Shown piece after piece: positions 740 to 6,204 of a stretch of DNA of 64,000 nucleotides (the first letter of the stretch is position 1; each line of letters begins with the position of its first letter). Origin of the DNA: Felis catus (Eukaryota); assembly GCF_018350175.1 (NCBI RefSeq), contig NC_058369.1, positions 134,168,001 to 134,232,000 of the forward strand, given 5' to 3'. The notes beneath the pieces are model-generated. The model did not search any database and was not told the DNA's origin. It saw only the letters and a program-made list of their open reading frames with translations. Both the position numbers and the translations under genes were made by a program.

Positions 740-2295
740 GTAAGAATATTCACCCTCCTCTCACAAGGTGTTTTCTCATTGTTTGCACTATAACTGAGGT
801 TTTAGCAGGTCATTTAACTGGTCAAGAAAGCTGCTTCTAGATAAGACATGTGGTAAACACTGGTGAATTCTGGAATTGTGGGACCACTGTCAGGAAATGT
901 GGCCCTAGTCAGACAAAACATGTGGAAGAAAATTACAGTTGATAGGTCATTCTACAAATCCATCAATGGGGCTACTAGTGGAAGCATTGCACGCACTGAA
1001 AGCAAGTTGCTATCCAGAATAAGTTGGACACTCAGCAGTAGCAAGACCCAAATCAGCCTTAGCAGAAAACCCATGCAGAGCCCCTATCCCTGATGATATA
1101 GTCATTTTAGTCATTTTATACATGATACACTGAGCAAGCACGGAGTGTCCGAAGTAAGATAAATATTATCTATGGGGTAGGTTGTGATGAAGTTTTGGAG
1201 TGATGGTAGGGTGGTCCAGAGCCAACAACCAAGAAAGAATTCTTGAAGACGTCTCTGGTGCAAAAAGGTGGTTTTATTACAGCATGGAAACGGGACCTGT
1301 GGGCAGAAAGAACTGCACTGGGGTAGTGATGGGTAACTCATTATATACCCTCAGGTTGGGAGGGGGTCAGGGATAGAGTAAGTCGCTAAGGAGTATTGGA
1401 AGCAAGGTTTCCAGGACTTTGCGGGGTTAGCTGTTGCTAGGGAAATGGCACTTATTACCATTTAATAAAACCTCAGTCATGATACCCTTCAGATGTATAT
1501 GGGGGGCCATAAGGGTGGAGTATGATTCCCAGCATATACCTTGGGGCAGTTGAGATAAAGGAAGTAGACTTACAGGATCCTCGAGTTTGGGATAATGTTA
1601 AGCTAAGATTCTCTTTTGCCCCTAGCGAAGTGTCATCATCTAAGCAGCTGAGCTCTTAAAGGCAGGTCACTCTGCAGGTTTCAAAGACTTGTCAATGGGC
1701 TATAGGCAGTAAGGGAATTTAATTATTCATTTGCCTTAGTTTCCCACATTCCATGGCAATCACTTAAACCCCTTTCCTTCATTCTTGGGTAACCAGGAAT
1801 GTCTGAGCAATATCACACATAGTTCCATGTGGGGGTGAAGAGGGGGCAGTGCCAGCCTGTATTTTGCCCTCAGCTTGCCCTACACTCCCTCATCAGGTCA
1901 CCTTTCCTAACAAATTACTGACAGCCTGTTCTGCAACACCGAGCATTACACAAAATATTGTCCTACTCCCTACCTTTCAGAATTGTCATCCCACATACCT
2001 GTCCCTCATTTGCTTTTTTTTAATTGTTCAGTATTTCATTGAAAAATTTTCCAGTCCCTGATAAGCCAAGTAAGTTGTTAGGCACTACCAACACTATCAG
2101 TGTAGATCTGCTTCTCAAGTCATCTCTTTTCACACATACAGTGGACAACGAGATGGATATACTAGCATGTTTTCTTTTCACTTTGAATAGGACTACAATA
2201 CAATATCCACCCATTTCCTTCCATTTTTCTTGCTCTGGAAAATGGTGTCCCTGTGCATCAAAACAAGAGAGGCCATCCAATACCGGTCACCAGTG
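740..2295 (-). mobile_element. ERVL-type internal remnant (RNase H-integrase), interrupted by a solo LTR at 1185-1895
   Basis: Minus-strand translation gives TYSG*QLAFSACNASTSSPIDGFVE (about 945-1025), matching recalled ERVL integrase TYSGYGFAFPA.NAS..TI.GL.E. It also gives HLVVHCMCEKR..QIYTDS (about 2095-2160), matching ERVL RNase H VHLVVHFAWKEK..IYTDS. Many stops and frameshifts. Confidence 0.75.
1185..1895 (-). mobile_element. Solo LTR (carnivore ERV LTR), 711 bp
   Basis: Inverted termini TGATGA...TCATCA. Flanks ggttg (1180-1184) and ggtca (1896-1900) form a decayed TSD. Minus-strand TATA-like (about 1341-1348) and AATAAA (about 1273-1278) are in LTR order. Confidence 0.85.
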
Positions 2296-4740: not shown

Positions 4741-5359
4741 TATTTCACAAAAATGACATATTATACACAGACCTACATGTGTGTATGTATCAAATTATTA
4801 AGGAAAACTGTGCGACACCATCCTGTAGTCTCTGCATACTGTATAAGGGTAAGCTCAGCCTAATTAGTTTTCTTCCTACGTGGTCCTTGTAAGCAAAAGG
4901 CCGGCACAGAGGAGTTTTGTATTGCACCAAGTGACAAAACAGAAATAGTGCTCAATATATGTAGAGGAAATGCAGGCAGAAAGGGGAGCACGGCTTTGAA
5001 GACGCAAAGTAATTTTTCTCTGCGGGGGGGGGGGGGGGGAGGAGGAACAAAAGATATATATATCTATTCTTAAAAACTAGAAGATTAGTATTCTTAATGC
5101 TCAACAGGGTATTGCATCTATAAAACTATAGCACTTATTACAAAAAAGAAAGAACCCAAGTTTTGTGAAGACAAAATAGAGATTTTAAAACACAAGACCA
5201 CAATCTGTTCAGTTAAAAAGTACAATGGACGGATTAAGCCTCATTTTAGATACAGGAGAAAATCAAATTAACGCAATAAAAAAACAACAAAAACAACAAA
5301 CCCAAGACAGCAATTCAGACGGGTAAAGATGTAAACACGAAGACAGTAAGTATCAGGAG

Positions 5360-5715
5360 GGCCTCACCAAGCGCTTCGCGTGCAGCCACTACTGGGATTC
5401 TTCAGCTGCTGCGGAACCTGTGCCCAAAGCATGCTGGGATGGTGGAGGGCGGGGCCTGGCTCCACCCGGGCCTCGCTCCACCCGGGCTTCGCTCACGGCC
5501 TGCGGCTTGAGGCAAGGAGCTCCGCTGCTTGTCCGTGTGGCTGCCGTCTGCTGGGACCAGGTGGGAAAGCTTGGAGGCAGCAGTGTGTTGTGAAGCTCAA
5601 GTTACCTGGAAACAAGAAGTTGATCGTGGCCACGTAAAAGAATGACATTGTACAATTAAGTTCTCGGACTGGGGAGATTTTGTGGCCTGACGTTGACACG
5701 TCGACGAGAGCGCAG
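5360..5715. promoter_or_regulatory. Small CpG island / promoter-like segment with a GC box (5447-5456) and a ZNF143-like motif (5429-5447)
   Basis: About 22 CpGs counted by eye in about 345 bp, in a CpG-depleted window. Contains gggcggggcc (Sp1) and gcatgctgggatggtggag, which resembles the ZNF143/SBS motif GCATGCTGGGA...GTAGT. Confidence 0.6.
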
Positions 5716-5955
5716 CAAAAAAGGCTGGGGATGCCATGCTCCTCCACAGACAGGATGCAATCACTGTGTCCATGGAGGCTGAATCATGCATTCCTGGAAG
5801 ACTAGTATCCGGGACCTGAACCGAGAAATCACTTGGAAAAGTGGCAGTTACCAGGCACTTAGGCTTGTAGGCCTGCAGGAGCCCATGAAGTACTTTGTCT
5901 TTTCTGAAGAAAACCACTCCCACCCTCCACTTTGTCTCCAGGGGGCACCTAAAGT
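5495..5955 (+). pseudogene. EMC1: Processed pseudogene of the 5' part of EMC1 (ER membrane protein complex subunit 1, about aa 1-162)
   Basis: Piecewise translation PLLVRVAAVCWDQVGK / WRQQCVVKLK / [26 protein letters not shown] / HVDESAAK / DAMLLHRQDAITVS / [39 protein letters not shown] / LKKTTPTLH / SRGHLK is colinear with recalled human EMC1 [142 protein letters not shown]. No introns. The start codon appears as ACG (5495), with stops at 5635 and 5780 and several frameshifts. Confidence 0.93.
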
Positions 5956-6090
5956 AAAAAATAGAAAAGGAAGGAAGAGAAAAAAAGATGGAAAGAAAGA
6001 TTGAAAGAGATAGAAAGAAAGAAAAGAGAAGGAAAGAAAGAGAAAGAAACAGAAAAGGAAAGGAAAGAATGGGTGAAGGGAGGGAGATGG
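5956..6090 (+). repeat. A/GA-rich low-complexity tract, probably the decayed poly(A) tail of the retrocopy
   Basis: aaaaaatagaaaaggaagg...(gaaa)n starts immediately after the last EMC1-like codon. Confidence 0.75.
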
Positions 6091-6204
6091 CTAATAAAAA
6101 TACTAGAGTCACAGAAAACAGATCTAGATGATTCAATATTTATATAATAGGAATCTTAGATACAAACAAACCAACAGACTCTGGGAACCAGGGAAACATT
6201 TATC

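What the first reader, a model, noticed from the sequence alone, without database searches (positions are those of the whole stretch)
5360..5500. Possible transplant of the EMC1/MRTO4 bidirectional promoter, with a minus-strand splice donor
Seen: about 130 bp of GC-rich sequence precedes the EMC1 start-codon equivalent (ACG, 5495). It carries a GC box, a ZNF143-like motif (gcatgctgggatggtggag) and a 16-bp tandem duplication (5459-5490). At its left edge the minus strand reads TTG|GTGAGG, a donor with the intron starting at 5367. Established: human EMC1 is head-to-head with MRTO4, and ZNF143 sites are typical of bidirectional promoters. Inference: an upstream-initiated EMC1 mRNA carried the shared promoter here. 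Its MRTO4-facing side could now provide exon 1 of a new lineage-specific transcript or an alternative TSS for a gene to the left of the window.
Basis: partly seen in the sequence, partly recalled or inferred. Interest (0 to 1): 0.72.

Follow-up and report, generated by a model that had tools for sequence, protein, structure and literature searches.

The report
Old EMC1 retrocopy carrying parental promoter
This is an old, broken, intron-less copy of the start of the EMC1 gene that also carries a worn copy of the two-way promoter EMC1 shares with MRTO4; it lies far from any coding gene and is likely a mostly silent relic of a known kind rather than the first exon of a new gene.

Summary
Window 5352-5955 is a processed pseudogene of EMC1 (exons 1-5 joined, A-rich tail) that begins 110 nt upstream of the parental ATG (0 of 1000 shuffles score as high). 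That stretch holds the counterpart of a ZNF143 site inside a ChIP peak in human and mouse, and spans both annotated human start sites. Corrections: the dead start codon is CGG 5483 (duplicated at 5467), not ACG 5495; the duplication straddles it; the GC box is absent from the parent. The functional claim is unsupported. The copy is old (19% divergence at non-degenerate sites), so probably not lineage-specific. Only 3 of 14 upstream CpGs survive. The donor is chance-level (12% of shuffles). The nearest coding gene found on the left is 736 kb away on the other strand. No junction appeared in 4 laid runs (a weak test), and the RNA-run hits track genomic background. For residual activity: this is the most CpG-rich 400 bp of 524 kb and the ZNF143 core survives. 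Inherited promoters are a published class, and the scan noted a like case (HADHB) on other DNA. Interest is low to moderate.

The parts
5352..5466 (+). Parent-derived upstream DNA: the EMC1-proximal 110 nt of the 291 nt between the EMC1 and MRTO4 start codons
   Evidence: Aligns to G000:C17:13974744-13974635 (minus) at 68.5% over 108 columns; score 73.5 against shuffled mean 33, 0 of 1000; the flank left of 5351 does not align
5362..5370 (-). Splice-donor-like TTG|GTGAGG, intron would start at 5367; use not shown
   Evidence: In the sequence; 12% of shuffles hold such a site; no GT at this place in this genome's parent; an X5 contig crosses it unspliced
5376..5385 (+). Decayed counterpart of the parental GCGCGTGCGC element (NRF1-like; motif name recalled)
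   Evidence: Alignment; parental motif found
5423..5440 (-). ZNF143 (SBS1-type) site ATCCCAGCATGCTTTGGG; core CCCR and C12 kept, 3' arm changed, no ACTACA extension
   Evidence: Counterpart of parental GGCCCGGCATGCACCGGG; the human and mouse counterparts are listed under ZNF143 ChIP peaks in PMC3627581 Tables S4 and S5; SBS definition from PMC3082894 passages
5447..5455 (+). GC box GGGCGGGGC, not present in this genome's parental promoter
   Evidence: no GGGCGG or CCGCCC between the two parental ATGs
5452..5494 (+). 16-bp tandem duplication across the dead start codon (CGG at 5467-5469 and 5483-5485)
   Evidence: TRF; alignment; codon count against human EMC1
5467..5955 (+). EMC1 processed pseudogene, coding exons 1-5 joined without introns, with a 4-nt and an 18-nt deletion, further indels and stops; ends about 20 nt before the end of exon 5
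   Evidence: Exon identities 62, 83, 74, 81, 77%; parent named by match to PDB EMC1; no later EMC1 exon found in the 524 kb around
5951..6069 (+). A-rich simple repeat, likely a decayed poly(A) tail
   Evidence: TRF; no convincing target-site duplication found

Best explanation
This is the 5' end of an old EMC1 processed pseudogene that includes 110 nt of the parental EMC1/MRTO4 two-way promoter, likely copied by LINE-1 from a spliced RNA that began upstream of the usual start, and it is now probably a decaying, silent or weakly active relic. Shown: homology and its sharp left edge, loss of introns 1-4, the counterpart of the ZNF143 site, a broken reading frame, partial CpG decay and no coding gene found nearby. 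Inferred: scattered initiation in the CpG-island promoter gave the long 5' end; LINE-1 did the copying; the RNA was cleaved or primed early in exon 5 (or the 3' part was lost later); the insertion is roughly as old as the main placental radiation; the minus-strand donor is incidental.
For: Upstream homology 0 of 1000 shuffles, ending at 5352. Four exon junctions without introns. The human parent is a ZNF143 peak in 4 cell lines, labelled bidirectional, with annotated starts 99 nt and 71 nt from the summit; counted by eye on that row, about 44 and 72 nt upstream of the EMC1 ATG, while the copy's edge maps about 120 nt upstream. Divergence 44 of 230 non-degenerate sites in exons 2-5, A/T-ward 24 to 11. 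Parental CpGs: 5 of 31 kept, 13 read TG or CA, 13 other; deamination-type changes 13 of 53 at CpG against 28 of 250 at other C/G, p = 0.013. Donor at chance level. No Pfam hit in 272 of the 400 listed ORFs of 60 aa or more. Share held by the 14 RNA or RNA-guess runs follows their contig size, Spearman 0.83; mean share 0.43 against 0.38 expected from contig letters over genome size.
Against: 5320-5720 is the most CpG-rich 400 bp in 524 kb (24 CpG; the next, with 19, are young SINEs). CpG observed/expected is 0.7 in exons 1-3 and in the 200 nt left of the insertion against 0.18 background. CpG decay is only about 2.2 times the background transition rate, less than the roughly tenfold recalled for fully methylated DNA. 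The ZNF143 core survives, and one SBS sufficed for two-way transcription in reporters (PMC3082894, passage). The expression test was weak: one raw run, 2% read, tissue unknown, with no proof of coverage.
Confidence: 0.68

Rival explanations
1. The inherited segment still works as an orphan promoter or enhancer, bound by ZNF143 and under-methylated in the germ line, making unspliced or unstable RNA in one or both directions.
For: Highest CpG count in 524 kb despite age; 8 CpG in exons 2-3 against 1.9 expected, and 4 against 1.0 in the left flank (post hoc); 3 of 11 A/T-to-G/C changes at non-degenerate sites make a CpG; SBS core kept, and TCCCAGnATGC occurs once in 524 kb; the 5 laid contigs all fall left of 5745.
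Against: Two local duplications inflate the CpG count; the three CpGs in and beside the SBS all read TG, so the better-looking TCCCA is likely a deamination product; the SBS 3' arm and the NRF1-like element are damaged; the parental CCAAT box lies outside the copied part; run shares match genomic background.
Confidence: 0.2
2. One reading: the MRTO4-facing side starts a minus-strand RNA whose exon 1 ends at the 5368/5367 donor, giving a spliced non-coding gene (or an alternative start for a gene on the left).
For: The copy spans the counterpart of the annotated human MRTO4 start (by eye), which would leave a short exon before the donor; the donor matches G|GTRAG.
Against: No joint or loose end at 5367 in 4 of 4 laid runs, and an X5 contig crosses the site unspliced; donor at chance level; no coding gene on the minus strand found within 260 kb left, nearest found is on the plus strand 736 kb away; the MiT/TFE gene on the right ends 140 kb before this site.
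Confidence: 0.07
3. The extra 110 nt was simply the normal 5' UTR of EMC1 in the ancestor, so no unusual upstream start is needed and nothing promoter-like was captured beyond a UTR.
For: CpG-island promoters have scattered starts (PMC2386082, abstract and passages); no start-site data for this genome's parent were available.
Against: In the human table row the annotated EMC1 start is about 44 nt from the ATG and the MRTO4 start lies inside the copied stretch; the segment holds the bound ZNF143 site.
Confidence: 0.05

Closest known systems
Retrocopies that inherited the parental core promoter through an upstream start site (Okamura and Nakai 2008, PMC2386082: abstract and passages; Carelli et al. 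2016, PMC4772013: passages)
   Same: Intron-less copy whose upstream DNA aligns to the parent's CpG-island promoter; Carelli found this in 6 of 230 human and 7 of 243 mouse expressed retrocopies (about 3%).
   Different: Those cases were chosen as transcribed, with mapped start sites; here transcription is not shown and the reading frame is dead. The parent is a head-to-head pair (the word 'bidirectional' does not occur in the main text of PMC2386082), and the copy is cut short at its 3' end.
Retrocopy-born alternative promoters of unrelated genes (RPL36A copy in NLRP2, PMC2386082 passage; retro_hsap_4001 in CSMD3, PMC7290577 passage)
   Different: Those inserted into a host gene; no host or downstream coding gene was found here.
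ZNF143/SBS bidirectional promoters (PMC3082894 passages; PMC3627581 passages and Tables S4, S5)
   Same: The parent is one of them in human and mouse; the copy keeps CCCR and C12 of the site.
   Different: The copy's site has a changed 3' arm and lost CpGs; binding untested.

Membership tests
Processed pseudogene | Parental introns absent | tested here: met
   Exons 1-5 contiguous across four junctions
Processed pseudogene | Different locus from an intact multi-exon parent | tested here: met
   Copy on G000:C2, parent on G000:C17 with open exons 1-5
Processed pseudogene | 3' poly(A) remnant | tested here: inconclusive
   A-rich repeat 5951-6069 follows directly, but inside exon 5 rather than after the 3' UTR
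Processed pseudogene | Target-site duplication | tested here: inconclusive
   No convincing repeat between the flanks; decay is expected at this age
Processed pseudogene | Disabled reading frame | tested here: met
   ATG lost, frameshifting indels and stops
Retrocopy with inherited parental promoter | Upstream DNA alignable to the parental locus beyond the main start site | tested here: met
   110 nt, 0 of 1000 shuffles; extends past both annotated human starts (counted by eye); the start sites of this genome's parent are unknown
Retrocopy with inherited parental promoter | Mapped start site and transcription from the inherited segment | tested here: inconclusive
   0 of 12.9 million raw reads in one run; 5 low-depth unspliced contigs in 3 runs that fit genomic background
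ZNF143 bidirectional promoter | SBS core (CCCR at 3-6, C at 12) | tested here: met
   5423-5440 minus strand
ZNF143 bidirectional promoter | ZNF143 binding and divergent transcription | not testable with these tools
   Needs ChIP, CAGE or a dual reporter
CpG island | At least 200 bp, GC above 50%, observed/expected above 0.6 (thresholds recalled) | tested here: met
   5352-5751: GC 0.59, o/e 0.63; only just, and short of the stricter 500-bp rule (recalled); the upstream part alone is 0.42

The most novel reading that the evidence does not exclude
A dead retrocopy transplanted a ZNF143-driven two-way promoter into the MDFIC-TFEC gene desert early in placental evolution, and its MRTO4-facing arm has since served as the start of a spliced non-coding gene or as a long-range element, so that only the promoter and not the gene was kept.
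Probability: 0.1. Interest if true: 0.55.

Novelty: new member of a known kind. Interest (0 to 1): 0.25.

Why it matters
As a relic it is a tidy record that EMC1 RNAs starting beyond the MRTO4 start site existed in an early mammal's germ line, and that a whole short two-way promoter core can travel by retroposition. If it proved active it would be a natural experiment on whether one ZNF143 site keeps two-way initiation after a move, and a case of gene birth from the opposite arm of a captured promoter. Nothing found here shows that activity. Searches found no paper on this copy, and search 44 none on the opposite-arm case; the library omits most subscription journals.

Tried and rejected
Alternative start for a coding gene on the left: no Pfam hit in 272 of 400 listed ORFs (the ORFs of L011-L013 and those overlapping SINEs were not sent), no CpG island and no long ORF other than L1, simple-repeat, unassigned or MiT/TFE ones, judged by eye, in 260 kb. 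Small exons could be missed. A TFEC upstream promoter, my own first idea: rejected, because the gene lies to the right and ends 140 kb before the site. GC-biased gene conversion as the cause of the CpGs: rejected, changes run A/T-ward 24 to 11 (the first attempt had wrong exon phases and was discarded). A first lay over a wider stretch gave no result, so possible second exons left of 5305 were not examined. Orthologues in other mammals: two metagenome scans found 0; no other mammal genome is held. Flanks as old LINE-1 ORF1 (recalled resemblance): not confirmed. Target-site duplication: none found. PF11968 search found nothing and its control did not ring. The supplements of PMC4772013 could not be read; they might list a human or mouse orthologue of this copy. 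PMC3082894 supplements (10 files searched, 2 not) do not name the pair. Look-ups by place and by sequence in earlier findings returned nothing.

Full report
Where it is. The window is G000:C2:134168001-134232000. The genome looks like that of a cat-family carnivore (recalled from its SINEs; no call names it). A search with window 5340-5960 found only the window itself and two exons of a gene on contig C17. That gene is EMC1: its exon 1 and exon 2 peptides match human EMC1 in the PDB (E 4e-5 and 3e-19). An exon reading MPKSKRDKK followed by GT faces the other way, 291 nt from the EMC1 ATG; I name it MRTO4 from recall and from the same arrangement in the human and mouse rows.

The observation. 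All motifs are in the sequence. The start-codon assignment is wrong. The parental ATC-ATG-GCG aligns to ACC-CGG-GCC at 5464-5472, and counting back from V22 of human EMC1 in the frame printed puts M1 at CGG 5483-5485, in the second copy of the 16-bp duplication. ACG 5495 is codon 5. The duplication therefore covers the dead start codon.

What it is. Window 5352-5955 aligns to 110 nt of parental upstream DNA followed by exons 1-5 without introns (identities 68.5, 62, 83, 74, 81, 77%). The upstream part alone scores 73.5 against a shuffled mean of 33 (0 of 1000), and the flank left of 5351 does not align. The copy stops about 20 nt before the end of exon 5 and runs into an A-rich repeat; no later EMC1 exon lies in the surrounding 524 kb and no target-site duplication was found. 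The frame is broken by loss of the ATG, indels and stops.

The promoter part is real promoter DNA. In PMC3627581 (passages, and rows of Tables S4 and S5) the human KIAA0090/MRTO4 interval is a ZNF143 peak in 4 cell lines, labelled bidirectional, and the mouse interval a peak in 3 cell types; the listed site is GTCCCGGCATGCACCGCG in human. This genome's parent has GGCCCGGCATGCACCGGG and the copy ATCCCAGCATGCTTTGGG at the aligned place. Counting by eye on the human row, the annotated EMC1 and MRTO4 starts lie about 44 and 72 nt upstream of the EMC1 ATG and the copy's left edge about 120 nt upstream, so the copy spans both. The copy holds 110 of the 291 nt between the ATGs; a CCAAT box and a second GCGCGTGC lie outside it, and the GC box has no match in the parent. 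An RNA that began upstream of the usual start is the simplest source (inferred).

Age. Non-degenerate sites differ at 44 of 230 in exons 2-5 (Kimura distance 0.22 with part of exon 1 included). With recalled mammalian neutral rates this points to about the time of the main placental radiation, so a felid-specific origin is unlikely; no other mammal genome was available and two metagenome scans found nothing. The signal-peptide spacing matches human rather than this genome's parent, which is two codons longer.

Is it active? For: 5320-5720 has 24 CpG, the highest 400-bp count in 524 kb, above young SINEs at 19; observed/expected is about 0.7 in exons 1-3 and in the 200 nt left of the insertion, against 0.18 overall; the SBS core survives, and a single SBS drove both directions in reporters (PMC3082894, passage). 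Against: of 31 aligned parental CpGs 5 are kept and 13 read TG or CA (upstream 3 and 6 of 14); deamination-type changes are 13 of 53 at CpG against 28 of 250 elsewhere (p = 0.013 overall, p = 0.09 for the upstream part alone); the three CpGs in and beside the SBS read TG, so its TCCCA look is likely a by-product of decay; two small duplications add CpGs. The decay is intermediate, about 2.2 times background, so partial protection is not excluded. GC-biased conversion does not explain the CpGs: changes run A/T-ward 24 to 11.

RNA evidence. Twenty runs hold part of 5050-5960, 14 of them RNA or guessed RNA. Their share follows the size of each run's contig set (Spearman 0.83, p = 0.0002; mean 0.43 against 0.38 expected from genome coverage), as genomic background would. 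Four runs were laid on 5305-5950: one raw oligo-dT run gave 0 of 12.9 million reads (2% of the run, coverage unproven), and three contig runs gave 5 pieces at depth 3-9 with no joint; one piece crosses 5367 unspliced and the only loose ends look like sequencing adapters (recalled).

The donor and the neighbourhood. A minus-strand GGTRAG appears in 12% of shuffles and at 0.67 per kb over both strands of the region. This genome's parent lacks the GT there; by eye the mouse row shares CACCAAG with the copy, so the site may be partly ancestral rather than newly selected. The nearest coding genes found are an MDFI-family gene ending 736 kb to the left on the plus strand and a MiT/TFE gene, TFEC by recalled synteny, whose last exon lies 140 kb to the right on the minus strand. 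Neither can use a leftward start here. No Pfam family matched 272 of 400 listed ORFs.

Comparison. Inherited promoters are a described class: more than half of 29 human pairs in PMC2386082 (abstract, passages) and about 3% of expressed retrocopies in PMC4772013 (passages; supplements unreadable). Retrocopies giving first exons or opposite-strand lncRNA sequence are also common (PMC7290577, passages). Searches found no paper on an EMC1 retrocopy. The scan earlier noted a HADHB retrocopy with the HADHA/HADHB promoter on other DNA (unchecked).

Verdict. The capture of the promoter is shown; present function is not. Relic 0.68, orphan promoter or enhancer 0.20, spliced minus-strand exon 0.07, plain long UTR 0.05. 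New member of a known kind; interest 0.25.

Noticed in passing
window 5951-6069: The copy is complete at the 5' end but stops inside exon 5 and runs into an A-rich repeat, the reverse of the usual 5' truncation; early polyadenylation, internal priming or later loss are all open.
   Followed up: partly
window 5690-5712: An 8-nt local duplication in the exon 3 remnant with 5 CpGs in about 22 nt, none present in the parent.
   Followed up: partly
window 5080-5351 and 6075-6200: Both flanks resemble an old LINE-1 ORF1 region (recalled), suggesting insertion into an older L1; not confirmed.
   Followed up: partly
window 5343-5351: A plus-strand donor-like ACA|GTAAGT at 5346, closer to consensus than the reported one, sits just left of the insertion; it shows how common such sites are.
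   Followed up: no
L005:4560-4634 (G000:C17 parent exon 1): This genome's EMC1 signal peptide is two codons longer than the human one, and the copy has the human spacing.
   Followed up: partly
window 1150-1850: An LTR-like stretch (recalled resemblance) lies 3.5 kb left of the element; observed only.
   Followed up: no
G000:C2:131833894-131834055: A DUF4730 (SMIM30-type) small protein gene, used only to place the window.
   Followed up: no
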